64,000 nucleotides of DNA, from assembly GCA_000004985.1 (NCBI GenBank), contig GG738880.1, one strand, 5' to 3'. Under the pieces are notes generated by a model that worked only from the letters and a program-made list of their open reading frames with translations, ran no database searches and was not told where the DNA came from. Below are positions 41,622 through 64,000 of the stretch, piece by piece; position 1 is the stretch's first letter, and each line of letters starts with the position of its first letter. Source of the stretch: Naegleria gruberi (Eukaryota). Made by a program: the position numbers and the translations under genes.

Positions 41622-44111
41622 ATGACAAAAGTCACTCCTGTTACTACTACAACAACTGATAAGAGACAAAACTATGGAGCCAATGATTCAGTTTCAGATA
41701 TTTTCCAAGAAGAAGAAGAAGAAGAAAATGCTCAATTGATTCAATCAAAAACTCAACCAAAACGAACCATTAATTGTCCCCTCCGTTTATTTCTCATGAC
41801 AACATTGAGTATACTTATCATTGTCTGTGCCATAACTGTTTATTTAGCAGTATTTGTTGGCATGTATTCATCAGTGGACGAATTGACCAACAAGATGATC
41901 CAAACAGTTCAAGGACAAGTCACCAATTACATTGACAGATTTCTAGGAGAGTTGAAAATGTCAAGCAAACTAGCTGCTGGCCACTATAACAATGGACTCG
42001 TTGCCAAGAAAGATTACAGACAATATCTCTATCAAGGATTCAATAATTCAGGAGTTTTTGTTGGCTACTTTTTACAGGTGAATAATCATTCTGAGAGATT
42101 TTCCTATGTGATTATAAATGGAAATTTCTTGTATACCTATCAGGATAATGGATTTCCAGGACTGATTAGAGATCGAGTTAATATCTCAACTGCACAAGTA
42201 ATCAAGTATAATTTTACAGTTTCGTCTGCTCCTCAAAATTTGGAAACGACAGAGTTTTATACTTCAGCCATTTCAGAATCGAATAGTTTGGGAGTTGAGG
42301 GCGTTTTTGGAAAACCGTTTTATGTGGTTGGAGGAGCCATTAGTTTGCCATATGCTACCAAACTTTATTCCACAATGTATCCAGTTAAAAGCTTGATTGG
42401 AATTTGTAGAGCTACCATTCCATTGTACTTGTTGTCAGAATATTTGAGTGGTGTCAAAGTTTTTCAAAAAGGATATGTCATTTTGACAGAATTGAATAGC
42501 ACAATTGCAGTTGCTGGAAGTATCAAGACCACCACCGATGATGGGAGTAACAATTTGAGTATTTTCAATTTGACACAAAATAATGCTGGTCAACTCATGA
42601 ATGACATTTCAATCAATTTTAGAGGATTAGATAATATTCCTTCTAAATTTTCAATTTACAGTATTGATACCAAGTATATTGTATCAGTTTCTAATTACAA
42701 GTTTGATAATGTGTGGAGAATGTTTATTATTGCATACGATGAAGATGTGAGCTTGACAACTAATTTGAGTATTGGAATTTCAATTGGTGTCTCGATTCTT
42801 ATAATAATTATTGGAATGGTATATAGTTTGATATTGAGCAAAATGATTACTCGAACTGTTAACTATTTAGAGGAGCAATTAATGTTTGTGAAGGTGTTTG
42901 ATTTGGAGAAGGTTACACTTTCGTCCAGTATCTTCAAAGAAATGAATCAGATTATAGATAATTTACACACGACAGTATTGTGGTTGAAACAGGTAAAGCC
43001 ATTTATTCCAGCCACTGTGTTTTATCACATTCAGAGCCAAAATGATGAAAACCTTGCTGAAGATAATGAAAAAGCTCAAGATTCGAATAAGCAAACAATT
43101 CATGATAAGAATGGTGATTCAAAGAATATAGATGTGCGTGGCTCCTCTTCACTAGATTCCAAAACGAAAAGCTCTTCACTTTCACTCAATAAGGATGCCA
43201 ATTCATTATTTAAAATGGGATTGTCAAGGAAAACCTGTGCCATTCTTCATATCACATTCAATAAGTTTGAATTACAAACAACACATTCGGATATTTCAGT
43301 CACTCTGTCTAAGGTTTCGACCATGATTAGAAACATTGCCAATATTCATCAAGCTCACTTTCAAATCAACTCTTCTGAAGATATCATTATTGTAATCGAT
43401 CAGAAATCAAATAAGAAACATCCATCAGAAATTGCACTTGAATGTGCTCTCAAAATTACTAATATCATTCATTCCACTAACAATTTACTGAAAGAAAATG
43501 ATTTAAATGGTTTGGATTTCTTTATTGGAATTTCAACAAGTGATAATTCACATGTTGGAAATATTGGATCTAATTCGTTCAGATTCTTCTCTTTCATATC
43601 AAATTCTAGAAAGATTGCAATGAATTTGGCTATTTTGGCAAGCTCACTTGGAGTTAGAATTCTCCTCGATGAAGAGACATTCAACAATACCAAGCAGAAG
43701 TTTATTACAAAACCAGTAGATAGAATATTATTGGAAGGTTCCATTCATTCTTCACAGACAAGTAACATTGCAAATGTTTATGAATTGGTCAAGGAAAAAG
43801 CTGTTGCCCAAGATGAATGGCTTTATGAGCTCGATAATTTGAATTCGAATAAGGAACTTGAAAGTTTGAATGGTGTATTCTCGATATTTAAGGAGATTCC
43901 ACAAGAGAAAATAATTCCAGAATTGGATAGTAATTTGGCATTGATTAATTCGTACCTTGAAAAATCTCCCAATGATGTTGCTGTCAGTAATTTATTGAAC
44001 ATTTTGGAGTATTATAAGCATGTGTGTGGAGGTGATGGTTTTGGAGAAGTGCTGACTCGTATTAGAAACTATTGCAAAAAAGTGAATTATCAGATAACAA
44101 CCATGCAATAA
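41622..44111 (+). CDS. Receptor-like 2-TM membrane protein with large extracytoplasmic sensor region and cytoplasmic class-III nucleotidyl-cyclase-homology-like domain (paralog 1)
   Basis: 829-aa ORF. TM1 is ~LFLMTTLSILIIVCAITVYLAVFVGMY and TM2 is ~ISIGVSILIIIIGMVYSLIL, with a ~330-aa loop between them. The cytoplasmic segment ..IGISTSDNSHVGNIGSNSFRFFSFISNSRKIAMNLA..RILLDEETF has the G.xxGxxxxGxxGxxxxRxxxxGxxVNxAxR spacing of cyclase catalytic domains. One metal-binding Asp position appears lost, so this is tentative and possibly degenerate. It is collinear along its whole length with the gene at 51639..54202. Confidence 0.5.
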   Translation: MTKVTPVTTTTTDKRQNYGANDSVSDIFQEEEEEENAQLIQSKTQPKRTINCPLRLFLMTTLSILIIVCAITVYLAVFVGMYSSVDELTNKMIQTVQGQVTNYIDRFLGELKMSSKLAAGHYNNGLVAKKDYRQYLYQGFNNSGVFVGYFLQVNNHSERFSYVIINGNFLYTYQDNGFPGLIRDRVNISTAQVIKYNFTVSSAPQNLETTEFYTSAISESNSLGVEGVFGKPFYVVGGAISLPYATKLYSTMYPVKSLIGICRATIPLYLLSEYLSGVKVFQKGYVILTELNSTIAVAGSIKTTTDDGSNNLSIFNLTQNNAGQLMNDISINFRGLDNIPSKFSIYSIDTKYIVSVSNYKFDNVWRMFIIAYDEDVSLTTNLSIGISIGVSILIIIIGMVYSLILSKMITRTVNYLEEQLMFVKVFDLEKVTLSSSIFKEMNQIIDNLHTTVLWLKQVKPFIPATVFYHIQSQNDENLAEDNEKAQDSNKQTIHDKNGDSKNIDVRGSSSLDSKTKSSSLSLNKDANSLFKMGLSRKTCAILHITFNKFELQTTHSDISVTLSKVSTMIRNIANIHQAHFQINSSEDIIIVIDQKSNKKHPSEIALECALKITNIIHSTNNLLKENDLNGLDFFIGISTSDNSHVGNIGSNSFRFFSFISNSRKIAMNLAILASSLGVRILLDEETFNNTKQKFITKPVDRILLEGSIHSSQTSNIANVYELVKEKAVAQDEWLYELDNLNSNKELESLNGVFSIFKEIPQEKIIPELDSNLALINSYLEKSPNDVAVSNLLNILEYYKHVCGGDGFGEVLTRIRNYCKKVNYQITTMQ

Positions 44112-46649: not shown

Positions 46650-48690
46650 CATCATGTGAAAAACAATAAAAACATGAAAATATAAGATATCCACGATTTT
46701 CACAAATTATGCTACAAGACTCGAAATTATACATTCAACAACATAATAAACATTATGAATTGTTGTTTTATTGTTGTTTGATTTGTAATTGGGCTATGAA
46801 TCAACTCTGTAGCATGAAATATCGGAACTTGGTAAATTGACAACATGATGAAAATCTGATAATAAATACCTCTCCTACCTACTATTGACCATTCCGAACA
46901 ATAATACATTGACACTTTTCCAACTTGTCCAGTAGATCCAGCAGTGATGATGAATTTAGTGAAAATTTTGACATTTCACCAAAATTACATTGCTAAAAAT
47001 TAATTTCCACAAATACTATTATTATATTGATGGAAAACAATAATGATGATGGTTGGTGAATGATCCGATGATGGAACACCAACTTGGGATTTTCCAGCAT
47101 GAAAAATAAATTCCAATTTCATGATGATAATGAACCAATAAAAATTACTATTATTATTACTATATAGATCATGTTGAGATGATGATGTGAAAGTTTGGTG
47201 GTTTCATGATGTAAAACCACTCCGAAAATCATGATGTCCTCCTTGAGTAGAAGAATGTTGAATATTTTTTTATGAAGTTTTTGTGAGAATGGCGTAGCAG
47301 TTGTATTATTGGTGAAGTTATGGTCTATGTCTTTCAAAATTAAGTCCATCATGATGATAATCCACTAATAAAATTACTACTATTCAGATCATGTTGAGGG
47401 GTTCGATTTATCTCTTGTTTTACTGTAACAAGTATTGCGCCCAAAATTGTTAAGGTACTTCCCGTGTGCTAAACTCAAGCTCCAAAAAAATGTTTGAAAA
47501 TAAGCCACTAACAAACATGCAAGATATTAACTCTGGAAAAGATTATTTAGCGAGTAAAAGAAGGAAGGAATGATGTTATCGGAGAAGGAATTTATCAGTG
47601 ATGATATTGAAATTAATGATAACACAAAAGCTACATCTTCAAAAACACTTTTCAATATTTCATCACCTTCGTTTAGGAAGAGATTGGAACTGGGAGAGGA
47701 TGTGCCATTCTCCAATAATTTTAATAATAATGTAAATAATTCAAACAATATTGAAAAACAACAAACGGAAACAAGTTCATCATCAACTACAACAACACCG
47801 AGACCATCATTCATCAAAGCACCTTCATTACCTTCATTATCTTTTCCTATTAAGAAAAGTTCATCAGTTTCTGATGATGTTAAAGAGATTGAATCTAAAT
47901 TGAATGCTAATTGCAAGAATGGTGTGGAAAGGGCAATGTTATACATGTTGGCAAACCGATTGAATGTCAAGTTGTTGATTGGAGTTCTATTTGTGTTATC
48001 TTTTTTAAATAGCCTTAAAACATTAAGTTTTAATCAGAATATTTTGAGTATTGTCCTATTTCTTGTTCAATTATATACTAACTATCATAGGAAGAATATT
48101 GATATGGCCATGTCCTATGAGGAGACTTTTAAAAGATTGGATGGGCAGGAAATGCAGAGAATGGTTGTTTCCTTGGTTCTCTACACAACCAGAATACTAT
48201 TCCTTCCCGAACATAACATGATGTTTATTCCAGTTCTTTTCCTTTGGTTTGCTGGAGCTAACAAGTTGTACATTTACTCAACTTTTCATGGGCTATTCCC
48301 AACATTTTACACAAGCTTTCTCTACATTATGTGTGCTTGCTACCATTCGTACCATGAGTATATTTTGAATGGATACTCTGCTCGATTCATTGGAATCATT
48401 GAGCAATATACAGTTATGACTGGCTGTGTTTGGATGTTCTCCTATTATTTTATTAATGTGACTGGTTATTTGAAACACAAGGTAGATAAATTGCAAGACA
48501 CTAGAAAAAGGTTGGAATCAGCATTAGACGCTCGTAGTCGTTTCATGGCCCATATTTCACACGAGTTTAGATGTCCAATAATGTCAAGTATAGGGTGCTT
48601 GGAGTTGTTAAAAGAAACTCCATTGAATGAAAAACAAAATGATTTGGTTGACACAATTGTTTCTTCAAATAGTGTTCTTTTGCTTTGATG
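46650..48690. repeat. Segmental duplication unit A (HK promoter region + 5' CDS); paralogous to 48741..50184
   Basis: Direct alignment by eye shows 46650.. matching 48741.. at a roughly constant offset of 2091 nt. After a ~145-bp insertion unique to copy B (48958..49105) the offset becomes 2235 nt. The identity is ~98-99%, with 2-nt and 6-nt indels in the CDS. Confidence 0.8.
47490..48688 (+). CDS. Hybrid histidine kinase, copy A, 5' part (sensor/TM region + HisKA), truncated by scaffold gap
   Basis: ORF 47570..48688 has hydrophobic helices, then ..RSRFMAHISHEFRCPIMSSIGCLELLKETPLNEKQNDLVDTIVSSNSVLL. This is a HisKA H-box with the phospho-accepting His. The sequence runs into the N-gap at 48691. 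The upstream ATG at 47490 (MFENKPLTNMQD..) is put out of frame by a 2-nt indel relative to copy B. Confidence 0.6.
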
Positions 48691-48740
48691 NNNNNNNNNN
48701 NNNNNNNNNNNNNNNNNNNNNNNNNNNNNNNNNNNNNNNN
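48691..48740. other. Assembly gap (50 N) between duplication units A and B
   Basis: Run of N. Confidence 1.
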
Positions 48741-50184
48741 CATCATGTGAAAACAATAAAAACATGAAAATATAAGATATCCACGATTTTCACAAATTTT
48801 GTTACAAGACTCGAAATTATACATTCAACAACATAATAAACATTATGAATTGTTGTTTTATTGTTGTTTGATTTGTAATTGGGCTATGAATCAACTCTGG
48901 TAGCATCAAATATCGGAACTTGGTAAATTGACAACATGATGAAAATCTGATAATAAATATGATGTTTATTATCTATTTAAATAGTAGTACTAAAAGACAT
49001 GATTCAAGTTGGTGAAGTACATGTTGAGTTATGGTCCATGTACTTTTTAAAAATTCACATGTACCTATCCCTATCATAACTTGACCAAAATTGATAAGAG
49101 AAAGTTCTCCTACCTACTATTGACCATTCCGAACAATAATACATTGACACTTTTCCAACTTGTCCAGTAGATCCAGCAGTGATGATGAATTTAGTGAAAA
49201 TTTTGACATTTCACCAAAATTACATTGCTAAAAATTAATTTCCACAAATACTATTATTATATTGATGGAAAACAATAATGATGATGGTTGGTGAATGATC
49301 CGATGATGGAACACCAACTTGGGATTTTCCAGCATGAAAAATAAATTCCAATTTCATGATGATAATGAACCAATAAAAATTACTATTATTATTACTATAT
49401 AGATCATGTTGAGATGATGATGTGAAAGTTTGGTGGTTTCATGATGTAAAACCACTCCGAAAATCATGATGTCCTCCTTGAGTAGAAGAATGTTGAATAT
49501 TTTTTTATGAAGTTTTTGTGAGAATGGCGTAGCAGTTGTATTATTGGTGAAGTTATGGTCTATGTCTTTCAAAATTAAGTCCATCATGATGATAATCCAC
49601 TAATAAAATTACTACTATTCAGATCATGTTGAGGGGTTCGATTTATCTCTTGTTTTACTGTAACAAGTATTGCGCCCAAAATTGTTAAGGTACTTCCCGT
49701 GTGCTAAACTCAAGCTCCAAAAAAATGTTTGAAAATAAGCCACTAACAAACATGCAAGATATTAACTCTGGAAAAGATTATTTAGCGAGTAAGAAGGAAG
49801 GAATGATGTTATCGGAGAAGGAATTTATCAGTGATGATATTGAAATTAATGATAACACAAAAGCTACTTCTTCAAAAACACTTTTCAATATTTCATCACC
49901 TTCGTTTAGGAAGAGATTGGAACTGGGAGAGGATGTACATGTGCCATTCTCCAATAATTTTAATAATAATGTAAATAATTCAAACAATATTGAAAAACAA
50001 CAAACGGAAACAAGTTCATCATCAACTACAACAACACCGAGACCATCATTCATCAAAGCACCATCATTACCTTCATTATCTTTTCCTATTAAGAAAAGTT
50101 CATCAGTTTCTGATGATGTTAAAGAGATTGAATCCAAATTGAATGCTAATTGCAAGAATGGTGTGGAAAGGGCAATGTTATACA
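48741..50184. repeat. Segmental duplication unit B (bounded by N-gaps on both sides)
   Basis: See unit A. The identical small ORFs 47119..47352 and 49354..49587 are part of this duplication. Confidence 0.8.
49725..50184 (+). CDS. Hybrid histidine kinase, copy B, N-terminal fragment, truncated by scaffold gap
   Basis: This fragment is ~98-99% identical to 47490..47950. The ATG at 49725 follows an A7 run and is in frame through MMLSEKEF... It has a 6-nt insertion (..EDVHVPFS..) relative to copy A and ends at the N-gap at 50185. Confidence 0.55.
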
Positions 50185-50569
50185 NNNNNNNNNNNNNNNN
50201 NNNNNNNNNNNNNNNNNNNNNNNNNNNNNNNNNNNNNNNNNNNNNNNNNNNNNNNNNNNNNNNNNNNNNNNNNNNNNNNNNNNNNNNNNNNNNNNNNNNN
50301 NNNNNNNNNNNNNNNNNNNNNNNNNNNNNNNNNNNNNNNNNNNNNNNNNNNNNNNNNNNNNNNNNNNNNNNNNNNNNNNNNNNNNNNNNNNNNNNNNNNN
50401 NNNNNNNNNNNNNNNNNNNNNNNNNNNNNNNNNNNNNNNNNNNNNNNNNNNNNNNNNNNNNNNNNNNNNNNNNNNNNNNNNNNNNNNNNNNNNNNNNNNN
50501 NNNNNNNNNNNNNNNNNNNNNNNNNNNNNNNNNNNNNNNNNNNNNNNNNNNNNNNNNNNNNNNNNNNNN
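50185..50569. other. Assembly gap (385 N) inside HK copy B
   Basis: Run of N. Confidence 1.
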
Positions 50570-51492
50570 ATGGCAAGTGTCAAGACCTGTCACATTGATG
50601 AAAAAAATGAATAGAGAAGATGTTCTTCTAATGTTGCATGATAAACCGAATGAAAATGCAAATAGCTTGTTTGAACTATTGAAAATTAGAATGATGACAA
50701 GCAAAACCTCTAAAATTTCAAATCAATTTACAAAAGCAATTCGTATTGATAATTGTAAACATGTGGAAACGCTTGGAACGCCAAATAAGTATGGAAAGCC
50801 TGCACGAGGACTCAACAACAAATTCTTCTTCAATATTCCGATGGATATTACTATTTCATACAGGCACGAAACAATTTATGTTTGCGACTACAAAAATTAC
50901 AAAATTCAAACATTTGATTTGGCTACCAAACAATTTATCACTTCAATTTCGACAATTCCGACGTGCTTTATCTACATTCAAGTGGACGATCAATTTGATC
51001 AATTATTTGGATTAGGATTTGATCGTTCCTTATATGTGGGAAAATTTGAGAAACCAAGTAAGGGAAGAGGTGGATTAAGTTTTGCAAGTTTGGAACGATT
51101 GAAAATGTCAGTAATGGAAGAATGTGGTCAATTTTCAAAGATTTGTTTGGATAGAGAAATGGGGAGATTATACTTTATGGAAAATTCAAGGCAATTCAGA
51201 ATTGGAGTATTGAGAACGATGGATTTGAGTATTGTAAATTTGATGCAAGTTGATTTTGATGAACAAGATCCAAGTGATGGGGACAAAATATTGTATTTGG
51301 ATGGAAGAGGCAATTTATGTATTCTTTCGTTCCCTCTTGTTAAAAGCATTCCCTTGTCAATTGTGAATTCAAGGAAACAAGCTCACTTTGGCCAATTTGA
51401 AACATTATTGAGTTTACAGAAAAGATTTCCAATGTGTTCAAGATAGTAACTGAGAAATCATCTGGGAATATATTAATTTCTATACCAATTCC
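50570..51492. repeat. Duplicated block carrying the NHL-propeller gene (copy 1); paralogous to 62455..63382
   Basis: tggcaagtgtcaagacctgtca[c/a]attgatgaaaaaaatgaatagagaagatg.. is shared between the two copies. Identity is ~97% apart from the inverted segment. Confidence 0.8.
50607..51446 (+). CDS. NHL-repeat-like beta-propeller protein (copy 1, intact)
   Basis: 279-aa ORF with the ATG after A7. It has repeated blade-like motifs (ETIYVCDYKNYKIQTFDL, RLYFMENSRQFRIGVLRTMDL, ILYLDGRGNLCILSFPL). It lies immediately 3' of the histidine-kinase block in both duplicated copies. Confidence 0.5.
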   Translation: MNREDVLLMLHDKPNENANSLFELLKIRMMTSKTSKISNQFTKAIRIDNCKHVETLGTPNKYGKPARGLNNKFFFNIPMDITISYRHETIYVCDYKNYKIQTFDLATKQFITSISTIPTCFIYIQVDDQFDQLFGLGFDRSLYVGKFEKPSKGRGGLSFASLERLKMSVMEECGQFSKICLDREMGRLYFMENSRQFRIGVLRTMDLSIVNLMQVDFDEQDPSDGDKILYLDGRGNLCILSFPLVKSIPLSIVNSRKQAHFGQFETLLSLQKRFPMCSR

Positions 51493-51638
51493 TTTAACAT
51501 CAACTCCTATTACCATTCAAAAAGGTCATCATCAAACATGGATCTTTCATTCTGCTTCTGGAATGGAAATTAATGAAATTGAAGGTGAATTATTAATTGT
51601 AGAAAAGAAATCCTTCACTATTAAAATATTCAAATAAT

Positions 51639-54202
51639 TTACATGTAATCTACAACAGTTGTATGAGGTGGATAAACTTCCTGAACTTGATTGTTGACAG
51701 TTGAATAATATTGCTTGAACAATTCAAATCTGGTGTTCTTTCCAGAAGATTCCAATATGTGAGCAAAATACCCAATGCTCTTAATCAATTTTCTGGCAGG
51801 ATACGATTTGATGTATTCATCATTTTGAACAACAGCTGTCAAATTAGCTTCATAATCTCTGAGCATGTTAATAATTTCATCATTATTCAACCCTTCAAAG
51901 TTCTTGTCATAGAAGAAATATTTTCCAAACTCTGAGAATTTCTGATTTGCCTTTTGCTGTTCCAACTCGTACATCCATTCTTGAAATTTTGTTACAATTT
52001 TTGTAAACCTTTCAACTTACCATCACCTTCAATAGTATTTTCCTTTTCAACTTCATAAACAACCGAAACTTTTCCTTCTTGTGAATTTTCAACAACTTCC
52101 ATCAACTTGTCAACTGGTCTGGATACAAACTTTTTCAGAGTTGACTCATCCATTGTTCCCTCATCAGCCAACACATCACATCTCAAGTCGTCTGCCAAAA
52201 AAGCAAGTTTTTCAGCATTGATAGGAACTGAACCAACAACAGAAAATGTTCTAAATGAACTAGTTCCCAAATTTCCTGCATAGCACTTTCCACTACTGAC
52301 TCCAATGGCACATCTGATATGGGTTTTCGATGTTTCATTGATTGTTACTAATAATTTTCTCAATTTCAAAGCAGCTTCCAAAGCCAAAACATTTGACGAT
52401 TTTCGACCATTTCCTTCCACAGACGAAACATAAATCTGATAATCATCCACAGTAATAACTTGAAAATCACCTTGTATAGATTTAGAAACAGCACTCAACC
52501 CAGAAACAATCTTTGAAAATATGTGTCCAATATCAGCAACATTCAAATCTGTTGAAAAATCAATTAATTTGATTCTTACAACTGCTCCTTGTTTACAATT
52601 CAGACCAATTTTGAAAAGAGAATTTCCCACTTCTTGAACTTTGGATGCCATTGAGGAAGTTCTTGAACTATTGTTACTAAAATGACGACTTCCATGAGAT
52701 TCCAAATCTATTGAGGCAGCATCACTATTCGAAACTGGGTGATTCTTATGTTTCTTTGATTTGGTGTTGGCTTGGGATTCATCTGTTTTTTTGGTATTTT
52801 CTTCTTTCATATTTCTCAATTGTAAAAATACACTTTCTGGAATAAATGTCTTAATTTCGTTTAACCATACTGTCATTTCATATAAATAAAGGTAAATCAA
52901 ATCGACTTCTTTAAACTTGCTTGCAGTAATATTCACCTGATCTAGTTCCATAGTTTTGATTTTCATAAATTCTCTTTCTAAAATTGTAAATGGATTTGTG
53001 ACAATGTGTCCAATAGTGATAGACATGATTACACCAACAATGATAATCAAAATGGTAATACCAACAGATACTCCAGTTGTAATATTTGTTACCATTTCAA
53101 CTTCTTGCTTATCAACCACAATGAAAACATTCCATTCCAAGTTGACCAATGTGAAATTTGACTTTACAATGAAAAAACCATCAAAGTCAATAAAAATTGG
53201 TGTGTTAGTCCACCCCTTATAATTCTGATAAACCCTGTTCAATAAACTTCCAGAACCCTTATCAATCAAGTCAAATAACGAAACTCTAGAACTTCCATCC
53301 AAAGCAGTAGTATTGATATTTCCACCAATGACAAGATTATTGGTTTCTGCCACAATCACATAACCACTAGTGAGTACTTGTACTGTTTTCAAAAAGCTTT
53401 CAATAATTCTCAATGAAATATTCGTTTTTGTAATGCCAACTACCTTTTTAATTCCATTGCTATAATAGGTAGGATCATATAATTTGGCACAATAGTAAGT
53501 TGTATAACTTGGATTGCCAGGAATTGCATAAGGAATGCCGAATACACCATCTAATCCCAAAGAGGAATAAAAACCAAAAGTAGTTTTCCAATAACTTTGA
53601 GCATTCACTTCATAATTAGGAGATGCCTTGACCAGTGACTTGGCAGTTGTGTTAGGAGTTGAAGTATCCAATGAAATTGCATATAACATAAATTCAGTCG
53701 TTGGTGTATGATACCAAACAACAATTTCATTGGGTGGAGCTCCGTAAACATTGACACTGTCAAGACTGTCATTAAAAAATAAACCAATTCCGTATGGCTT
53801 GAAAGTGTTGTAATATTTGTAAAGATAGGCAAGCGATGGTTGACGAGGAACAAGTCCTAAATTGTAATCCTCAGCCATTGACTCAGTTGCTGAAATATAA
53901 GGTTTCAGTTGACCGTTCATATAGTTCAGTACTGAACCACTGATGGTATGCATCAATTGAGTTGATAAGGAACTCAGGGCTTCTCGAGATCCTATGAAAG
54001 AAGATAACCAAATTAAAATTGAACAGCAAACTAATAGAGAAGTGATTAGAATAATGATAAATGTTCTAACCGAAATGATTCCACCACATGTTGTTGGTTT
54101 GATTGGAGCTATTTTGGTTTTCTCCTCGGTTTCGTCTTCGTTGAGGAGAGGATTTTGTTCTTTGAGACTGTCTAGGGATGCTGTGAATGGTTGTATTTTC
54201 AT
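51639..54202 (-). CDS. Receptor-like 2-TM membrane protein with cyclase-homology-like cytoplasmic domain (paralog 2); 2 exons (52021..54202, 51639..51979)
   Basis: 736-aa ORF plus a 111-aa ORF joined by a 41-nt intron (51980..52020). The donor is GTAAGT and the acceptor is ..TTTCAAG, at phase 1. The junction ..TIEGDG-E-WMYELEQQKAN.. aligns with the contiguous ..VAQDEWLYELDNLNSN.. of paralog 1. The cytoplasmic region is ..VVRIKLIDFSTDL..ITVDDYQIYV..IRCAIGVSSGKCYAGNLGTSSFRTFSVVGSVPINAEKLAFLADDL. Both putative metal-binding Asp positions appear retained. Confidence 0.55.
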
Positions 54203-55452
54203 GATTAGTTTTGAATAGTTTTTTTAAAAATTTGAAATCATTTGAAAGGTAGTTTGATTCAATCTCGTTTGAAAATTTAGAAATCTCACCACATATGCGT
54301 TTATGGTGGAGATAACAACAATTACCTGTTTGAATATTTCCTTAACTTCTCCATTCTATTCACAACCCATCATATACTGTTAACTTTAAACGAAAATTTA
54401 CAGCGCTCATTTAGAATGATTCAACTCTGTTCCCATCACTTGATGTTAAACAACCAAATGTTTTTTCTACTTTGAAAGAGAATCTTCCTTAAAATTCGAT
54501 AGGTGACAGAAATAAAAGGGTGTAGGTGTAAAAACGTCTCTTGTATCAATAACGACCTGAGAGAACAATAGGTGACAGAAAAGAAAAAGATGTTGTTGCA
54601 TTTCAGCTATCTCCCTTGATTTTTTTTGCTATAGTAAATTCGTTTATTTAAACATAGTTGTTTGGTAAATTACTTAGTGAAGATTCATATCATTGATTAT
54701 ATTTCTTATCGTCTATTAATGATGTAAATATGATGTTTTCATTTCTTATATCTGTGGTCAGGTTCTCGGCGCATTTTTGTGATGCTTCCAAAAAACATGG
54801 AATGCTCCCAAAGCTGATTTACCTGTAGGGGTAATTGGATGCGCCAATAACACCGATTTATTACTTAAGCAAATTCACTCAACTTCAACAAAGCGTATCT
54901 CAATAACAACACTGGATGTTAGAGAAACATACCGTATGGTCATTATTAATTATGTTAACAATCATAATATCAAGTTTGTTACAGATTTGGCTCTTTACTT
55001 ATCGAGAAAAGTGATTTCAAAATTTTCATATGTGGTAGTAAGACGAGCATGTTTTCTTGGTTAATACAAATAACTGATATTCAATAAAACAGAATCTTGT
55101 AGAAAACATCAATTAGAACAAGAATAATAAATAATATTTTTATTTCACTAAGTATTAAATTTAATATTTCCTTTTTTGTAAGGAGCATTGCAAAAATACG
55201 GGAAAAACATTTCCACAGATATTGATAGATATTTAAAGGTTAAGGATAACGGTCAAATTGAGTTGAATGGAAGTGAATATTGAGATATGTATACTACTGT
55301 TGAAGAAGTATCACCTTCACTATAATTACTGACATGAGTATAACAATTGAACATATGATTCCTGTATCAATAATTCATTATTCAATGATTTTGATATGAT
55401 GGGGTTGGATTAGATATCCACTTTTGGGTTTGGATCCCATGTCAACCCCTAT

Positions 55453-58400
55453 NNNNNNNNNNNNNNNNNNNNNNNNNNNNNNNNNNNNNNNNNNNNNNNN
55501 NNNNNNNNNNNNNNNNNNNNNNNNNNNNNNNNNNNNNNNNNNNNNNNNNNNNNNNNNNNNNNNNNNNNNNNNNNNNNNNNNNNNNNNNNNNNNNNNNNNN
55601 NNNNNNNNNNNNNNNNNNNNNNNNNNNNNNNNNNNNNNNNNNNNNNNNNNNNNNNNNNNNNNNNNNNNNNNNNNNNNNNNNNNNNNNNNNNNNNNNNNNN
55701 NNNNNNNNNNNNNNNNNNNNNNNNNNNNNNNNNNNNNNNNNNNNNNNNNNNNNNNNNNNNNNNNNNNNNNNNNNNNNNNNNNNNNNNNNNNNNNNNNNNN
55801 NNNNNNNNNNNNNNNNNNNNNNNNNNNNNNNNNNNNNNNNNNNNNNNNNNNNNNNNNNNNNNNNNNNNNNNNNNNNNNNNNNNNNNNNNNNNNNNNNNNN
55901 NNNNNNNNNNNNNNNNNNNNNNNNNNNNNNNNNNNNNNNNNNNNNNNNNNNNNNNNNNNNNNNNNNNNNNNNNNNNNNNNNNNNNNNNNNNNNNNNNNNN
56001 NNNNNNNNNNNNNNNNNNNNNNNNNNNNNNNNNNNNNNNNNNNNNNNNNNNNNNNNNNNNNNNNNNNNNNNNNNNNNNNNNNNNNNNNNNNNNNNNNNNN
56101 NNNNNNNNNNNNNNNNNNNNNNNNNNNNNNNNNNNNNNNNNNNNNNNNNNNNNNNNNNNNNNNNNNNNNNNNNNNNNNNNNNNNNNNNNNNNNNNNNNNN
56201 NNNNNNNNNNNNNNNNNNNNNNNNNNNNNNNNNNNNNNNNNNNNNNNNNNNNNNNNNNNNNNNNNNNNNNNNNNNNNNNNNNNNNNNNNNNNNNNNNNNN
56301 NNNNNNNNNNNNNNNNNNNNNNNNNNNNNNNNNNNNNNNNNNNNNNNNNNNNNNNNNNNNNNNNNNNNNNNNNNNNNNNNNNNNNNNNNNNNNNNNNNNN
56401 NNNNNNNNNNNNNNNNNNNNNNNNNNNNNNNNNNNNNNNNNNNNNNNNNNNNNNNNNNNNNNNNNNNNNNNNNNNNNNNNNNNNNNNNNNNNNNNNNNNN
56501 NNNNNNNNNNNNNNNNNNNNNNNNNNNNNNNNNNNNNNNNNNNNNNNNNNNNNNNNNNNNNNNNNNNNNNNNNNNNNNNNNNNNNNNNNNNNNNNNNNNN
56601 NNNNNNNNNNNNNNNNNNNNNNNNNNNNNNNNNNNNNNNNNNNNNNNNNNNNNNNNNNNNNNNNNNNNNNNNNNNNNNNNNNNNNNNNNNNNNNNNNNNN
56701 NNNNNNNNNNNNNNNNNNNNNNNNNNNNNNNNNNNNNNNNNNNNNNNNNNNNNNNNNNNNNNNNNNNNNNNNNNNNNNNNNNNNNNNNNNNNNNNNNNNN
56801 NNNNNNNNNNNNNNNNNNNNNNNNNNNNNNNNNNNNNNNNNNNNNNNNNNNNNNNNNNNNNNNNNNNNNNNNNNNNNNNNNNNNNNNNNNNNNNNNNNNN
56901 NNNNNNNNNNNNNNNNNNNNNNNNNNNNNNNNNNNNNNNNNNNNNNNNNNNNNNNNNNNNNNNNNNNNNNNNNNNNNNNNNNNNNNNNNNNNNNNNNNNN
57001 NNNNNNNNNNNNNNNNNNNNNNNNNNNNNNNNNNNNNNNNNNNNNNNNNNNNNNNNNNNNNNNNNNNNNNNNNNNNNNNNNNNNNNNNNNNNNNNNNNNN
57101 NNNNNNNNNNNNNNNNNNNNNNNNNNNNNNNNNNNNNNNNNNNNNNNNNNNNNNNNNNNNNNNNNNNNNNNNNNNNNNNNNNNNNNNNNNNNNNNNNNNN
57201 NNNNNNNNNNNNNNNNNNNNNNNNNNNNNNNNNNNNNNNNNNNNNNNNNNNNNNNNNNNNNNNNNNNNNNNNNNNNNNNNNNNNNNNNNNNNNNNNNNNN
57301 NNNNNNNNNNNNNNNNNNNNNNNNNNNNNNNNNNNNNNNNNNNNNNNNNNNNNNNNNNNNNNNNNNNNNNNNNNNNNNNNNNNNNNNNNNNNNNNNNNNN
57401 NNNNNNNNNNNNNNNNNNNNNNNNNNNNNNNNNNNNNNNNNNNNNNNNNNNNNNNNNNNNNNNNNNNNNNNNNNNNNNNNNNNNNNNNNNNNNNNNNNNN
57501 NNNNNNNNNNNNNNNNNNNNNNNNNNNNNNNNNNNNNNNNNNNNNNNNNNNNNNNNNNNNNNNNNNNNNNNNNNNNNNNNNNNNNNNNNNNNNNNNNNNN
57601 NNNNNNNNNNNNNNNNNNNNNNNNNNNNNNNNNNNNNNNNNNNNNNNNNNNNNNNNNNNNNNNNNNNNNNNNNNNNNNNNNNNNNNNNNNNNNNNNNNNN
57701 NNNNNNNNNNNNNNNNNNNNNNNNNNNNNNNNNNNNNNNNNNNNNNNNNNNNNNNNNNNNNNNNNNNNNNNNNNNNNNNNNNNNNNNNNNNNNNNNNNNN
57801 NNNNNNNNNNNNNNNNNNNNNNNNNNNNNNNNNNNNNNNNNNNNNNNNNNNNNNNNNNNNNNNNNNNNNNNNNNNNNNNNNNNNNNNNNNNNNNNNNNNN
57901 NNNNNNNNNNNNNNNNNNNNNNNNNNNNNNNNNNNNNNNNNNNNNNNNNNNNNNNNNNNNNNNNNNNNNNNNNNNNNNNNNNNNNNNNNNNNNNNNNNNN
58001 NNNNNNNNNNNNNNNNNNNNNNNNNNNNNNNNNNNNNNNNNNNNNNNNNNNNNNNNNNNNNNNNNNNNNNNNNNNNNNNNNNNNNNNNNNNNNNNNNNNN
58101 NNNNNNNNNNNNNNNNNNNNNNNNNNNNNNNNNNNNNNNNNNNNNNNNNNNNNNNNNNNNNNNNNNNNNNNNNNNNNNNNNNNNNNNNNNNNNNNNNNNN
58201 NNNNNNNNNNNNNNNNNNNNNNNNNNNNNNNNNNNNNNNNNNNNNNNNNNNNNNNNNNNNNNNNNNNNNNNNNNNNNNNNNNNNNNNNNNNNNNNNNNNN
58301 NNNNNNNNNNNNNNNNNNNNNNNNNNNNNNNNNNNNNNNNNNNNNNNNNNNNNNNNNNNNNNNNNNNNNNNNNNNNNNNNNNNNNNNNNNNNNNNNNNNN

Positions 58401-60125
58401 NNNNNNNNNNNNNNNNNNNNNNNNNNNNNNNNNNNNNNNNNNNNNNNNNNNNNNNNNNNNNNNNNNNNNNNNNNNNNNNNNNNNNNNNNNNNNNNNNNNN
58501 NNNNNNNNNNNNNNNNNNNNNNNNNNNNNNNNNNNNNNNNNNNNNNNNNNNNNNNNNNNNNNNNNNNNNNNNNNNNNNNNNNNNNNNNNNNNNNNNNNNN
58601 NNNNNNNNNNNNNNNNNNNNNNNNNNNNNNNNNNNNNNNNNNNNNNNNNNNNNNNNNNNNNNNNNNNNNNNNNNNNNNNNNNNNNNNNNNNNNNNNNNNN
58701 NNNNNNNNNNNNNNNNNNNNNNNNNNNNNNNNNNNNNNNNNNNNNNNNNNNNNNNNNNNNNNNNNNNNNNNNNNNNNNNNNNNNNNNNNNNNNNNNNNNN
58801 NNNNNNNNNNNNNNNNNNNNNNNNNNNNNNNNNNNNNNNNNNNNNNNNNNNNNNNNNNNNNNNNNNNNNNNNNNNNNNNNNNNNNNNNNNNNNNNNNNNN
58901 NNNNNNNNNNNNNNNNNNNNNNNNNNNNNNNNNNNNNNNNNNNNNNNNNNNNNNNNNNNNNNNNNNNNNNNNNNNNNNNNNNNNNNNNNNNNNNNNNNNN
59001 NNNNNNNNNNNNNNNNNNNNNNNNNNNNNNNNNNNNNNNNNNNNNNNNNNNNNNNNNNNNNNNNNNNNNNNNNNNNNNNNNNNNNNNNNNNNNNNNNNNN
59101 NNNNNNNNNNNNNNNNNNNNNNNNNNNNNNNNNNNNNNNNNNNNNNNNNNNNNNNNNNNNNNNNNNNNNNNNNNNNNNNNNNNNNNNNNNNNNNNNNNNN
59201 NNNNNNNNNNNNNNNNNNNNNNNNNNNNNNNNNNNNNNNNNNNNNNNNNNNNNNNNNNNNNNNNNNNNNNNNNNNNNNNNNNNNNNNNNNNNNNNNNNNN
59301 NNNNNNNNNNNNNNNNNNNNNNNNNNNNNNNNNNNNNNNNNNNNNNNNNNNNNNNNNNNNNNNNNNNNNNNNNNNNNNNNNNNNNNNNNNNNNNNNNNNN
59401 NNNNNNNNNNNNNNNNNNNNNNNNNNNNNNNNNNNNNNNNNNNNNNNNNNNNNNNNNNNNNNNNNNNNNNNNNNNNNNNNNNNNNNNNNNNNNNNNNNNN
59501 NNNNNNNNNNNNNNNNNNNNNNNNNNNNNNNNNNNNNNNNNNNNNNNNNNNNNNNNNNNNNNNNNNNNNNNNNNNNNNNNNNNNNNNNNNNNNNNNNNNN
59601 NNNNNNNNNNNNNNNNNNNNNNNNNNNNNNNNNNNNNNNNNNNNNNNNNNNNNNNNNNNNNNNNNNNNNNNNNNNNNNNNNNNNNNNNNNNNNNNNNNNN
59701 NNNNNNNNNNNNNNNNNNNNNNNNNNNNNNNNNNNNNNNNNNNNNNNNNNNNNNNNNNNNNNNNNNNNNNNNNNNNNNNNNNNNNNNNNNNNNNNNNNNN
59801 NNNNNNNNNNNNNNNNNNNNNNNNNNNNNNNNNNNNNNNNNNNNNNNNNNNNNNNNNNNNNNNNNNNNNNNNNNNNNNNNNNNNNNNNNNNNNNNNNNNN
59901 NNNNNNNNNNNNNNNNNNNNNNNNNNNNNNNNNNNNNNNNNNNNNNNNNNNNNNNNNNNNNNNNNNNNNNNNNNNNNNNNNNNNNNNNNNNNNNNNNNNN
60001 NNNNNNNNNNNNNNNNNNNNNNNNNNNNNNNNNNNNNNNNNNNNNNNNNNNNNNNNNNNNNNNNNNNNNNNNNNNNNNNNNNNNNNNNNNNNNNNNNNNN
60101 NNNNNNNNNNNNNNNNNNNNNNNNN
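55453..60125. other. Assembly gap (4673 N)
   Basis: This is a run of N. The long poly-X ORFs across it are artefacts. Confidence 1.
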
Positions 60126-61057
60126 ATAAAATGAGCGAGTTGGAGCATAATCTTTGATTTTATGTCAAAGGTCTATAGTAAAATGATAGAGTTGACAACT
60201 CAATATCTACTGAACCAAAATTAATGAAATTGATATTATATGCTAATTAGAGTGTCTACATATCATGGTATTAATTTCAGTGAAAATGGAGTTGTTTCTA
60301 TATCTTTCAGATTTCCAGCCATTCTCTTGAAATATCACCATGTACTATCTACTGAATGCATTTGTTGAAATGAAATTATATAATTTGATGAAATTACACT
60401 TTATTTGAGATGTAGAACACGATATTATCATTTATTTTGAGATTGGTAACTTTTCCTATAGTGTCATCCTTAATTGTCTTAATTGACTAAAAAAGGTCAA
60501 GGAGATATTTCAAAATATAAAATAAATTATATTTTCGAGATGTACTATTGATTTCCAATCGATTGATATGTATTTTGTTGATTGACGAAGTGGTTCTCTA
60601 TTTGAAGATTTCCTCCTTGATCTTTAAAGACAACCTTGAAATTTCACCCTTTACCTTACTGAAAGATAGAATATTCTCCAAAATGTCTGAAAATTGAACC
60701 ATATACATTATTTGAGATGTTGAACATGGTGGTAAAGTTGCATAGAGTGGTCATTTTCCAGATTTTCATCCATGTCCACAGTTGACTAATTGGTATGATA
60801 GAGTTGAAATCATGAACATGAAAGTGAAAATAAACTTGATTTTCTATCTCTACTCGTAGAGTGAAGCATTTTCATGTATATATTGTTGGTTGAAGTGATG
60901 TATTTGATAGAGTTAGTGTGACTTGTCTTTCCTTAAAGTCAACCATAAAATATCAACATTTACCTTCCCATTATACCATTTCTGATTATTAAGACATGAA
61001 ATTGAATTCTATATCATTATATATCATGTACATCATTTTGGTAAAGTTTTAATAGGT

Positions 61058-61356
61058 GGTTTGGGTTTGGGTTTGGGTTTGGGTTTGGGTTTGGGTTTGG
61101 GTTTGGGTTTGGGTTTGGGTTTGGGTTTGGGTTTGGGTTTGGGTTTGGGTTTGGGTTTGGGTTTGGGTTTGGGTTTGGGTTTGGGTTTGGGTTTGGGTTT
61201 GGGTTTGGGTTTGGGTTTGGGTTTGGGTTTGGGTTTGGGTTTGGGTTTGGGTTTGGGTTTGGGTTTGGGTTTGGGTTGGGTTTGGGTTTGGGTTTGGGTT
61301 TGGGTTTGGGTTTGGGTTTGGGTTTGGGTTTGGGTTTGGGTTTGGGTTTGGGTTAA
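61058..61356. repeat. (GGGTTT)n hexanucleotide microsatellite, ~50 units, one imperfection; telomere-repeat-like
   Basis: The array is a direct read of ggtttgggtttggg... from ~61058 to the N-gap at 61357. The six-frame ORFs across it (VWVW.., GLGL/GFGF.., KPKP.., TQTQ..) are artefacts of the repeat. Confidence 0.9.
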
Positions 61357-61406
61357 NNNNNNNNNNNNNNNNNNNNNNNNNNNNNNNNNNNNNNNNNNNN
61401 NNNNNN
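61357..61406. other. Assembly gap (50 N) between the (GGGTTT)n array and the HK HATPase exon
   Basis: Run of N. Confidence 1.
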
Positions 61407-62445
61407 AAGGATGAGGATCCAAATGTAACAACCTTTAATTTGTTCGAATCGTTGAAGGCCATGACGAACATTATTTCAGGTTACGCTTCCACATTTAAGG
61501 TAAATTTGAAATTGGAAATTGATTCCAAGATTAAGGACATGTTCGTTCACTCAAATTCTTCCAAACTCCACCAAATATTATTAAATTTATTGACAAACGC
61601 TGTAAAGGCTTCAAAGCAAGGTGATTCTGTATGGTTAAAAAGTAGACTATTGGAAGATTATGGAGATTCTGTAACTGTCAGATTTATTTGTGAAGATACT
61701 GGATGCGGAATTCCACAAAATTTGATTTCTTCTATTTTTGAACCATTCGTGCAATTACAAAACAGCTCACAATCCAAAGTGCCAAGTTCTGGACTCGGAC
61801 TCACTACTGTTTCACATCTAATCAAATCGATGGATGGTCAAATTAGCGTTCTCTCTCAAGTCGGAAAAGGAAGTATTTTCACAGTTGATTTGCCATTCAA
61901 ATTAAAACCAAGCAAGTTCCAAGAAAATAGTGATCGTAATGGTAATCCAGAAGATAGGCGATCAAAACTTCACCTTAGCGTTCATAAGAGCTATTTAACA
62001 ATGATGACAGACTTGGAAAAGAATGAAAAAGAAAAGGAGAAAAAGTCAAAGTTTAATTCTAAAATATTGATTGCAGAAGATAATCCTATTAACAGAAAAG
62101 TTATTGTCAAGATGATAAATAGTTTAGGGCACGAAACAGATTATGTTTGTGATGGAAAGGAACTGGTTGAGAACTTTAATCCAAAAACTCACAAGGTTGT
62201 AATTACAGATATGGTATGTTGAAAAATCAATATTTAATGTATGCTCATCTAATTAGAATATGCCAAATATGAATGGATTGGAAGCTACTAAGGTTCTAAG
62301 AGAAAAATATGGAGATTCATTCAAGATTTATTTATTAACAGGTAATGTGACAGTCTCTTTGACAGATGTTGATGATATGGGTTTATTGGATGGCATTCTA
62401 ACAAAGCCCTGTTCTAAACAAGAGCTTGAGAAATGTATTACGTAA
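61407..62445 (+). CDS. Hybrid histidine kinase, copy C, 3' part: HATPase_c + receiver domain; exons 61407..62213 and 62257..62445 (5' end lost in gap)
   Basis: The N-box is LHQILLNLLTNAVKAS, with G1 ICEDTGCGIPQ and G2 SGLGLTTVSHLI. The receiver domain is KILIAEDNPINRKVIVKMINSLGHETDYVCDGKELVENF..KVVITDM. Donor GTATGT follows, with a 43-nt intron (62214..62256) ending AATTAG. Translation then continues NMPNMNGLEATKVLREKYGDSFKIYLLTGN..LDGILTKPCSKQELEKCIT. The conserved D and MPxMxG/KP motifs are present. Confidence 0.75.
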
Positions 62446-62454
62446 AGTGAATTT

Positions 62455-63382
62455 GGCAAGTGTCAAGACCTGTCAAATTGATGAAAAAAAATGAATAGAG
62501 AAGATGTTCTTCTAATGTTGCATGATAAACCGAATGAAAATGCAAATAGCTTGTTTGAACTATTGAAAATTAGAATGATGACAAGCAAAACCTCTAAAAT
62601 TTCAAATCAATTTACAAAAGTAATTCGTATTGATAATTGTAAACATGTGGAAACGCTTGGAACGCCAAATAAATATGGAAAGCCTGCACGAGGACTCAAC
62701 AACAAATTCTTCTTCAATATTCCGATGGATATTACTATTTCATACAGGCACGAAACAATTTATGTTTGCGACTACAAAAATTACAAAATTCAAACATTTG
62801 ATTTGGCTACCAAACAATTTATCACTTCAATTTCGACAATTCCGACGTGCTTTATCTACATTCAAGTGGATGATCAATTTGATCAATTATTTGGATTAGG
62901 ATTTGATCGTTCCTTATATGTGGGAAAATTTGAGAAACCAAGTAAGGGAAGAGGTGGATTAAGTTTTGCAAGTTTGGAAAGTATAATCTTCCCATTTCTC
63001 TATCCATACAAATCTTTGAAAATTGACCACATTCTTCCATTAGTGACATTTTCAATCGTTTATGGAAAATTCAAGGCAATTCAGAATTGGAGTATTGAGA
63101 ACGATGGATTTGAATATTGTAAATTTGATGCAAGTTGATTTTGATGAACAAGATCCAAGTGATGGGGACAAAGTATTGTATTTGGATGGAAGAGGCAATT
63201 TATGTATTCTTTCATTCCCTCTTGTTAAAAGTATACCCTTGTCAATTGTGAATTCAAGGAAACAAGCTCACTTTGGCCAATTTGAAACATTATTTGAGTT
63301 TACAGAAAAGATTTCAAATGTGTTCAAGATAGCAACTGAGCAATCGTCTGGGAATATATTAATTTCCATACCAATTCCTTTG
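62455..63382. repeat. Duplicated block carrying the NHL-propeller pseudo-copy (copy 2), ending in an N-gap
   Basis: See 50570..51492. Confidence 0.8.
62491..63382 (+). pseudogene. NHL-repeat-like beta-propeller gene, copy 2, disrupted by an ~82-bp internal inversion and truncated by a gap
   Basis: This copy is ~97% identical to 50607..51470. The segment 62980..63063 is the reverse complement of 51096..51177, which breaks the ORF into 62491..63138 and 63062..63382+. Confidence 0.5.
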
Positions 63383-63432: not shown

Positions 63433-64000
63433 TTATTGAAATACCATGATTAACTGATCCATTATAACACATTATAATTGAAAGATTTTAAAATTAATAT
63501 GATTTGACAATCTTGACATTTATAATTCCCATGATTACACTCCTGACATGTTGAATGATTTCAAATTGTCATGAAACTGATACAGTAGTGTTTATTCACC
63601 TTCACTAAGGTCCTATATCAGTTTCATGATGATCTGTATAGTGGATGTGATTGTCACATCCCTATAGGTGTCAAGTAGATCAGCCATGTAGCATGTATGA
63701 TATGGATGAATGTCAAAATGATATTAATGTATTTCATTATCATGTATAGATGTATTGGAAGTGAATTGAAGTGGTATAGATTTCTATCTTCAATGTTAGT
63801 ATAGGTGAGTTGACAAGTTGAATATTAAATATCCTGATATGATACCTAAGTATTTGAAATTGATATATATTGTTATTAACATGATTTGCAAGGTGATATA
63901 TTGATATGAAATGATTTTGAAATGTTTTCATTGATATTCTAATTGTCTAATCTATTATATGAAATTAACTTATATAAGTCATTATAATGATGTAATATTA

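What the first reader, a model, noticed from the sequence alone, without database searches (positions are those of the whole stretch)
61058..61356. (GGGTTT)~50 array internal to the scaffold and flanked by gaps: candidate telomeric repeat marking a mis-join
A G-rich and T-rich simple hexamer in a perfect head-to-tail array of ~300 bp is what a telomerase-made telomere looks like (compare TTGGGG, TTTAGGG). Here it sits in the scaffold interior. It lies directly between a 50-N gap and unique AT-rich sequence that itself follows a 4.7-kb gap. That placement suggests a chromosome end, or an interstitial telomere-like tract, was scaffolded into the HK locus. The alternative is an ordinary intronic or intergenic microsatellite.
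Basis: partly seen in the sequence, partly recalled or inferred. Interest (0 to 1): 0.5.

Follow-up and report, generated by a model that had tools for sequence, protein, structure and literature searches.

The report
Telomere repeat on a misplaced contig
The roughly 50-unit GGGTTT array is real and matches the telomere repeat already proposed for the amoeba Naegleria gruberi, but it sits on a tiny contig inside a badly assembled patch of a draft scaffold, so it is most likely a chromosome end caught in an assembly artefact rather than new biology.

Summary
A 297-nt (GGGTTT)n array lies at 61058-61354 with 49.7 units, and one unit lacks a T. It is the only such tract in the window.

The window is from Naegleria gruberi, a Sanger-era draft with a 416-kb scaffold. 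TTTGGG was already published in 2013 as this species' candidate telomere repeat.

The array closes a 1.2-kb gene-free, AT-rich contig. Its G-rich strand runs 5'->3' into the contig end, which is telomere orientation.

The 'HK exon' contig to its right (61407-63382) is demonstrably out of place:
- Its left end completes the histidine-kinase gene that breaks off at 48690, with only about 18 codons missing.
- Its right part is a 98-99% copy of 50571-51495.
- A second redundant contig (48741-50184) repeats 46650-47945.

Two things could not be tested here: whether the array is physically terminal, and whether this chromosome end belongs to this scaffold or another.

Novelty: already known. Its value is practical: assembly and annotation repair, and a probe target for testing the telomere experimentally.

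The parts
61058..61354 (+). (GGGTTT)n array of 49.7 units. The G-rich strand is on the + strand and points to the contig end. Perfect runs of 35 and 12 units are separated by one GGGTT unit at about 61273-61277.
61355..61356 (+). Two non-repeat bases (AA) that end the contig. They are probably low-quality read end or trimming residue (inference).
60126..61057 (+). Unique, gene-free, AT-rich flank (28.8% GC). It shows no Pfam or Rfam signal and no similarity to the rest of the window. It is subtelomere-like.
60621..60751 (+). Copy of a degenerate unit of about 306-310 bp inside the flank.
   Evidence: local alignment to 60930-61060, z = 11.4 against shuffles
60930..61060 (+). Second copy of the degenerate unit. 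The similarity stops at ...GGTGGT, exactly where the GGGTTT array begins, so the array is joined inside a unit.
55453..60125 (.). 4,673-N scaffold gap to the left of the array contig.
61357..61406 (.). Nominal 50-N gap between the array and the displaced HK contig.
61407..63382 (+). Displaced or redundant contig. It carries the HK 3' half (HATPase_c plus receiver, one 40-nt intron at 62217-62256, stop at 62444-62446). Downstream is a 98-99% copy of 50571-51495 that contains an 83-nt in-place inversion.
47570..48690 (+). HK 5' half at the end of the 48.7-kb contig. It breaks off inside the HisKA domain (...IVSSNSVLLL) and is the true left neighbour of 61407-63382.
48741..50184 (+). Redundant contig: a 98% copy of 46650-47945 with an indel of about 145 bp.
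50571..51495 (+). Start of the 4.9-kb contig. It is the counterpart of 62454-63381.
63433..64000 (.). Another small AT-rich (26.6% GC) non-coding contig behind a 50-N gap. It is unrelated to the sequence that follows the other copy at 51496 onward.

Best explanation
The array is a stretch of the Naegleria gruberi telomere, (TTTGGG)n. It was captured at the end of a 1.2-kb Sanger contig together with 0.9 kb of gene-free subtelomeric sequence.

Proposed mechanism (inferred from general telomere biology, not shown here):
- Telomerase copies a CCCAAA-containing RNA template to add TTTGGG units to the 3' end of the G-rich strand.
- The resulting tract caps the chromosome end.

The array appears inside a scaffold because this part of the draft is mis-scaffolded:
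- Two copies of the HK locus differing by 1-2% were assembled as separate small contigs and strung out in a row. They are most simply the two alleles of a heterozygous diploid.
- The telomere contig was dropped among them.

Two sub-scenarios cannot be separated with the window alone:
(a) The chromosome truly ends a few kb to the right of the gene at 51992-54202, and the contigs placed beyond the array are redundant pieces.
(b) The telomere contig belongs to another chromosome end.
For: Shown:
- The array is real, long and nearly pure, and it is the only one in the window.
- The organism is N. gruberi: a neighbouring ORF is 99% identical to NAEGRDRAFT_80465 on a 416,450-bp scaffold.
- TTTGGG is the published candidate telomere repeat of N. 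gruberi. It was chosen for terminal position and orientation in the assembly (PMC3622300).
- The G-strand runs 5'->3' into the contig end and no right-hand unique flank exists.
- The flank is gene-free and AT-rich. It carries a degenerate tandem unit of about 310 bp that is cut by the array.
- The neighbouring contig is out of place. Joining 48690 to 61407 restores one HK gene lacking about 18 residues (about 54 nt, the size of a nominal gap) relative to paralogues P0011 and P0012. Its remainder copies 50571-51495.
- A second redundant contig lies at 48741-50184.
- The public gene model P0019 is a chimera spliced across the 385-N gap.
- The window has 5 gaps in its last 15 kb, against roughly one per 34 kb genome-wide. 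That average is from 1,977 contigs, 784 scaffolds and 40.9 Mb (PMC6831594).
- Naegleria is described as mainly a heterozygous diploid (PMC9928731).

Controls:
- There is no (GGGTTT)>=2 run in the other 58 kb of the window.
- There is none in 92 kb of chromosome interior from Willaertia magna, N. fowleri and N. lovaniensis.
- Internal GGGTTT runs in 120 metagenome loci reach at most 139 nt, with a median of 30 nt.
- Terminal TTTGGG arrays in telomere orientation do occur in environmental AT-rich eukaryote contigs, including 5 of 5 contigs from project JAESGV01.
Against: - Terminal position on the DNA molecule was not and could not be tested.
- The 2013 assignment for N. gruberi is computational, and its authors state that experiments are still needed.
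- The scaffolder did place the contig here, so some read-pair link to this region presumably exists.
- Short internal GGGTTT runs are common in metagenome contigs: 107 of 123 arrays were internal. The motif alone is therefore not diagnostic.
- The orientation bias of terminal metagenome arrays is weak: 11 against 5, p = 0.105.
- The redundant contigs could be a recent segmental duplication rather than alleles.
- No telomerase gene or RNA template was examined.
Confidence: 0.72

Rival explanations
1. The array is a genuine interstitial telomeric tract at this locus. It could be a relic of an end-to-end fusion or of telomere capture. It could also be a heterozygous terminal truncation healed by new telomere addition on one homologue while the other homologue continues, which would give read-pair links on both sides.
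For: - The array lies inside a scaffold.
- It joins the flank in the middle of a repeat unit, as a healed break would.
- It sits beside a 98-99% duplicated block.
- The 2013 survey notes that many genomes with terminal arrays also carry internal blocks.
Against: - No unique sequence is contiguous with the right side of the array.
- The only right-hand neighbour is a contig that provably belongs 12.7 kb upstream, so the apparent internal position has no support from sequence.
- Natural telomere-subtelomere junctions also cut repeats at arbitrary points.
Confidence: 0.12
2. The array is an ordinary intergenic hexanucleotide microsatellite that expanded by replication slippage and is unrelated to chromosome ends. 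The assembler simply broke at it.
For: - Short GGGTTT runs are frequent inside metagenome contigs from many organisms.
- Simple repeats commonly end contigs.
- The telomere assignment for this species has not been confirmed experimentally.
Against: - The motif coincides with the one picked independently as this species' terminal repeat.
- At 297 nt it is about twice the longest internal run seen (139 nt).
- No other microsatellite in the window exceeds 10 units.
- No second GGGTTT dimer occurs in 58 kb here or in 92 kb of relatives' interiors.
- No contig starts with the array's other side.
Confidence: 0.1
3. The array contig is foreign or artefactual, for example a chimeric clone or a contaminant eukaryote with TTTGGG telomeres, and is not N. 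gruberi DNA at all.
For:
- Unidentified environmental eukaryotes with terminal TTTGGG arrays exist.
Against: - Base composition and style match N. gruberi non-coding DNA in the same window: 29% GC against 27-30% in the neighbouring non-coding contigs.
- The survey found this motif as the recurrent terminal repeat of the assembly, which a stray contaminant would not produce.
Confidence: 0.03

Closest known systems
Candidate telomere repeat TTTGGG of Naegleria gruberi (Fulneckova et al. 2013, Genome Biol Evol, PMC3622300)
   Same: Same organism and same hexamer. It was identified from the same draft assembly using array position and orientation. The array here shows the expected outward G-strand orientation at its contig end.
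   Different: That work reports the motif and does not discuss this locus. This copy lies in the interior of a scaffold. Neither study shows physical terminality.
Ciliate telomeres: Tetrahymena TTGGGG and Paramecium TTGGG(T/G) (own knowledge)
   Same: They are short T/G hexamers made by telomerase. Paramecium telomeres contain TTTGGG units.
   Different: Paramecium mixes G4T2 with G3T3. The array here is pure G3T3 apart from one GGGTT unit. Long ORFs read with the standard code argue against a ciliate.
Interstitial telomeric sequences (ITS) of animals and plants (own knowledge; internal blocks also noted in PMC3622300)
   Same: A telomere-type repeat found away from the end of an assembled sequence.
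   Different: A true ITS has unique DNA contiguous on both sides. Here the right side is a gap followed by a misplaced contig.
Haplotig-type redundancy in draft assemblies of heterozygous diploids (own knowledge; Naegleria heterozygosity in PMC9928731)
   Same: Near-identical (98-99%) small contigs laid side by side, nominal 50-N gaps, a gene split between distant contigs, and a chimeric gene model.
   Different: One redundant contig lies about 12 kb from its counterpart rather than next to it. A recent segmental duplication is not excluded.

Membership tests
Telomerase-made terminal telomere array | Head-to-tail array of a short T(x)G(y)-type unit | tested here: met
   49.7 units of GGGTTT at 99% match.
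Telomerase-made terminal telomere array | G-rich strand runs 5'->3' toward the end of the molecule | tested here: met
   Met at contig level. Unique flank lies on the left, and the G-strand on + runs into the contig end at 61356.
Telomerase-made terminal telomere array | Physically terminal: reads stop in the array, and the signal is Bal31-sensitive | not testable with these tools
   No reads or wet-lab data were available. The array is followed by Ns.
Telomerase-made terminal telomere array | Same motif recurs at many chromosome or scaffold ends of the same genome in outward orientation | not testable with these tools
   The N. gruberi assembly could not be reached. The literature reports it as this species' candidate (PMC3622300), but its supplementary table is not held.
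Telomerase-made terminal telomere array | Organism encodes TERT and a telomerase RNA with a CCCAAA-containing template | not tested
Telomerase-made terminal telomere array | Adjacent subtelomeric DNA is gene-poor and repetitive | tested here: inconclusive
   The 932-nt flank has no ORF over 71 aa and no Pfam or Rfam hit. It has a degenerate repeat of about 310 bp (z = 11.4 for one pair, 5.5 for another). It shares no repeat family with the neighbouring non-coding contigs.
Interstitial telomeric sequence | Unique chromosomal sequence contiguous with both sides of the array | tested here: not met
   The right side is a 50-N gap followed by a contig that belongs after 48690.
Ordinary microsatellite | One of many comparable arrays scattered in chromosome interiors, in either orientation | tested here: inconclusive
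   There is none in 58 kb of the window or in 92 kb of relatives' interiors. Short internal runs are common in metagenomes, at most 139 nt. No genome-wide count for N. gruberi was possible.
Redundant-contig (haplotig) scaffolding artefact | Small contigs nearly identical to neighbouring sequence | tested here: met
   48741-50184 matches 46650-47945 at 98%. 62454-63381 matches 50571-51495 at 98-99% outside an 83-nt inversion.
Redundant-contig (haplotig) scaffolding artefact | Relocating the contig restores a broken gene | tested here: met
   Joining 48690 to 61407 gives a continuous HisKA-HATPase_c-receiver protein with about 18 residues missing relative to paralogues.
Redundant-contig (haplotig) scaffolding artefact | Half read depth on each redundant copy | not testable with these tools
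   No read data were available.

The most novel reading that the evidence does not exclude
The array is truly internal on one homologue or truly terminal on only one. That would mean a heterozygous chromosome truncation a few kb beyond the HK locus, healed by new addition of TTTGGG repeats inside a 310-bp subtelomeric unit, next to a recent 98-99% segmental duplication. It would be a snapshot of ongoing chromosome-end remodelling in a free-living heterolobosean whose karyotype is known to vary between strains.
Probability: 0.1. Interest if true: 0.4.

Novelty: already known. Interest (0 to 1): 0.15.

Why it matters
The value is mostly practical.

- It flags a mis-scaffolded patch of the N. gruberi reference. 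That patch splits a hybrid histidine-kinase gene in two and produced a chimeric public protein model.
- It supplies a specific candidate chromosome end: 0.9 kb of unique subtelomeric sequence joined to (TTTGGG)n. This could serve as a probe or primer target for the first experimental test (Bal31, terminal restriction fragment, long reads) of the unusual TTTGGG telomere proposed for Heterolobosea.

It does not reveal a new kind of element.

Tried and rejected
- Exact look-ups of window proteins and of the N. gruberi proteins P0001 and P0019 returned nothing. The rest of the scaffold, and the window's position in it, could not be seen.
- Look-ups in relatives worked but all landed mid-contig, so no chromosome ends were visible.
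- Literature searches beyond the 2013 survey found no statement on Naegleria telomeres. The genome paper itself is not held, and the survey's supplement is not held.
- I tested whether the three non-coding stretches (54203-55452, 60126-61057, 63433-64000) form one subtelomeric repeat family. They do not, by BLAST or nhmmer. The flank-versus-tail alignment reaches only z = 3.9.
- I considered a telomere-associated retroelement. No ORF exceeds 93 aa and no Pfam hit passes its cut-off. No Rfam family matches.
- I considered a ciliate origin (Paramecium-like G3T3). It is rejected because long ORFs read with the standard code and the homology is to Naegleria.
- I spent the last large protein search on a metagenome ORF to identify the JAESGV01 organism. 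The ORF was a TPR-CHAT protein and taxonomically uninformative. An accession search in papers also failed.
- Translated comparison of the metagenome loci with the window and with Willaertia loci gave no hits.

Full report
**1. The observation**

The sequence at 61058-61354 is a head-to-tail hexamer array. Tandem Repeats Finder gives period 6, 49.7 copies, 99% matches and score 587. The next best tandem repeat in the 64-kb window scores 107, and no other microsatellite exceeds ten units.

In GGGTTT phase there are 35 perfect units (61063-61272), one GGGTT unit, then 12 perfect units (61278-61349). The contig ends ...GGGTTAA at 61356.

To the right is a 50-N gap (61357-61406). To the left are 932 nt of unique sequence (60126-61057), preceded by a 4,673-N gap.

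A scan for (GGGTTT)3 allowing three mismatches finds 48 hits. All are inside the array, against 0.07 expected from shuffles.

**2. The organism**

The ORF at 51992-54202 (minus strand) is 99% identical to Naegleria gruberi NAEGRDRAFT_80465, which lies on a 416,450-bp scaffold. More distant homologues are from N. lovaniensis, N. fowleri and Willaertia magna.

This is the Sanger-era draft: 1,977 contigs in 784 scaffolds and 40.9 Mb (Table 1 of PMC6831594). That averages about one gap per 34 kb. The window has no gap in its first 48.7 kb and five in its last 15 kb. The array therefore sits in a locally troubled part of the assembly.

**3. Is GGGTTT a telomere repeat here?**

Fulneckova et al. 2013 searched 143 genome assemblies for TnAmGo-type arrays and judged them by position and orientation. 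They named TTTGGG as an unexpected candidate telomere repeat of N. gruberi. They cautioned that terminal position needs experimental confirmation and that many genomes also carry internal blocks (PMC3622300). I found no later paper addressing Naegleria telomeres.

In the window the array has the orientation expected of a chromosome end. Unique DNA lies to the left, the G-rich strand runs 5'->3' to the right, the contig stops in the array, and no contig supplies a right-hand flank.

**4. The flank**

The 932-nt flank has these properties:
- It has 28.8% GC, against 34.8% for the large contig.
- It has no ORF longer than 71 codons, no Pfam hit above cut-off and no Rfam hit.
- It matches nothing else in the window by BLAST or nhmmer.
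- It contains a degenerate tandem unit of about 306-310 bp. Positions 60621-60751 align with 60930-61060 (z = 11.4 against shuffles), and an earlier copy shares a 25-nt core (z = 5.5).

The alignment of the last copy stops at ...GGTGGT, exactly where the array starts. The array is therefore joined inside a unit. This fits a subtelomeric repeat abutting a telomere, but the repeat signal is weak.

**5. The mis-join**

The large contig ends at 48690 inside a HisKA domain (...IVSSNSVLLL). Pfam matches profile positions 1-48 of 66.

The contig on the far side of the array (61407-63382) opens with KDEDPNVTTFNLFESL... It carries HATPase_c and a receiver domain, with one 40-nt GT-AG intron and a stop at 62444-62446.

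I aligned the joined halves with the complete N. gruberi paralogues P0011 and P0012 (59-62% identity overall, 74-75% over the aligned kinase core). Only about 18 residues are missing at the junction (L-IEDILQIVKIEHESKGA, about 54 nt). That is the size of a nominal 50-N gap. In the scaffold the two halves lie 12.7 kb apart.

The rest of the same contig (62454-63381) is a 98-99% copy of 50571-51495. The exceptions are an 83-nt in-place inversion and single-base indels.

A further small contig (48741-50184) is a 98% copy of 46650-47945 with an indel of about 145 bp.

The public protein P0019 on this scaffold is a chimera. Residues 1-152 map to 49725-50180, and residues 140-402 map to 50655-51443, joined across the 385-N gap.

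The 'HK exon' next to the array is thus a displaced or redundant piece. Its adjacency to the array is an artefact.

**6. What the redundant contigs are**

Naegleria is described as mainly a heterozygous diploid, and heterozygosity was reported for N. gruberi (PMC9928731). Two alleles differing by 1-2%, assembled separately and laid out in series, would give this picture.

Two features fit less neatly:
- One redundant contig sits about 12 kb from its counterpart.
- The small contig after it (63433-64000) does not match what follows the other copy at 51496 onward.

A recent segmental duplication, as often found near chromosome ends, is therefore not excluded. Read depth would decide.

**7. Controls from elsewhere**

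I scanned JGI metagenome contigs for (GGGTTT)5.
- 107 arrays were internal and short (median 30 nt, maximum 139 nt).
- 16 lay within 30 nt of a contig end. Of these, 11 were in telomere orientation and 5 were not (one-sided binomial p = 0.105).

The motif alone is not diagnostic, and the orientation bias overall is weak. However, the 297-nt array here is about twice the longest internal run seen.

One project (JAESGV01) contributes five AT-rich contigs that all end in the array in telomere orientation. Single contigs from two other data sets do the same. TTTGGG telomeres therefore exist in environmental eukaryotes. I could not identify those organisms.

In 92 kb of chromosome interior from W. 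magna, N. fowleri and N. lovaniensis there is not a single GGGTTT dimer.

**8. Verdict**

The best-supported reading is this:
- The array is a piece of the N. gruberi telomere with its subtelomeric flank.
- It was assembled as a 1.2-kb contig and placed among misassembled redundant contigs.
- The scaffold interior position reflects assembly error, not chromosome structure.

How it works is inferred from general telomere biology, not shown here. Telomerase would add TTTGGG units templated by a CCCAAA-containing RNA to the 3' end of the G-strand, and the tract would cap the end.

I cannot say whether this end belongs to the chromosome carrying the HK locus or to another one. In the first case the redundant contigs were simply appended beyond the true end.

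Confidence in each reading:

| Reading | Confidence |
|---|---|
| Telomere piece caught in a mis-scaffolded patch (best) | about 0.72 |
| True interstitial tract or healed heterozygous truncation | about 0.12 |
| Unrelated microsatellite | about 0.10 |
| Foreign or chimeric contig | about 0.03 |

**9. Novelty and interest**

The repeat motif and its assignment to this species were published in 2013, and the rest is an assembly artefact. The finding is therefore already known and of low general interest (0.15).

It is still useful in three ways. It can be used to repair the HK gene model. It flags a chimeric protein entry. It provides a unique-sequence handle on one putative chromosome end for the still-missing experimental validation of the Naegleria telomere.

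Noticed in passing
window 47570-48690 plus 61407-62446: A hybrid histidine kinase (HisKA, HATPase_c, receiver) is split between two contigs 12.7 kb apart in the scaffold. About 18 residues are missing at the break. The apparent in-frame stop at 48686-48688 falls where the paralogues continue LIEDIL, so it is probably a base-calling slip at the contig end.
   Followed up: yes
window 51094-51176 versus 62978-63060: An 83-nt segment is cleanly inverted in place between the two 98-99% identical copies. In the 50570 copy the ORF reads straight through it. The other copy carries an extra base nearby and changes frame. A further 1-nt indel near 51408 truncates the first copy. This could be a real small inversion polymorphism or a low-coverage assembly error.
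   Followed up: partly
window 49725-50180 and 50655-51443: The public N. gruberi 'predicted protein' P0019 (402 aa) is a chimeric model. The N-terminus of the redundant HK copy is spliced across a 385-N gap onto the unrelated downstream gene.
   Followed up: yes
window 48741-50184: A redundant contig copies 46650-47945 at 98% identity with an insertion of about 145 bp (48960-49077) relative to the main contig. The stated 385-N gap after it is far smaller than the roughly 1.85 kb needed to reach the next contig if the copies are collinear.
   Followed up: partly
window 41622-44111 (+) and 51992-54202 (-): Two large paralogous ORFs (28% identity over about 730 aa) flank the HK locus. UniProt labels relatives 'guanylate cyclase domain-containing', yet Pfam finds no domain in either. 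The family has multiple copies in Naegleria and Willaertia.
   Followed up: no
loci L008, L057, L060, L073, L097 (metagenome project JAESGV01): Five AT-rich contigs (22-38% GC) with long uninterrupted ORFs all end in (TTTGGG)n in telomere orientation. They come from an unidentified environmental eukaryote that apparently uses the same telomere repeat.
   Followed up: partly
locus L011, 6043-6142: A 26%-GC metagenome contig ends in (GGGTTT)15 followed by GGGTTGGGGT. This mix of G3T3 and G4T2 units is reminiscent of Paramecium-type telomeres.
   Followed up: no
locus L094, whole contig (1,424 nt, 62% GC): The contig is made almost entirely of CCCAAA units grading into CCCTAA, CCCTAG and related variants. 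It is a telomere-like tract with mixed repeat types.
   Followed up: no
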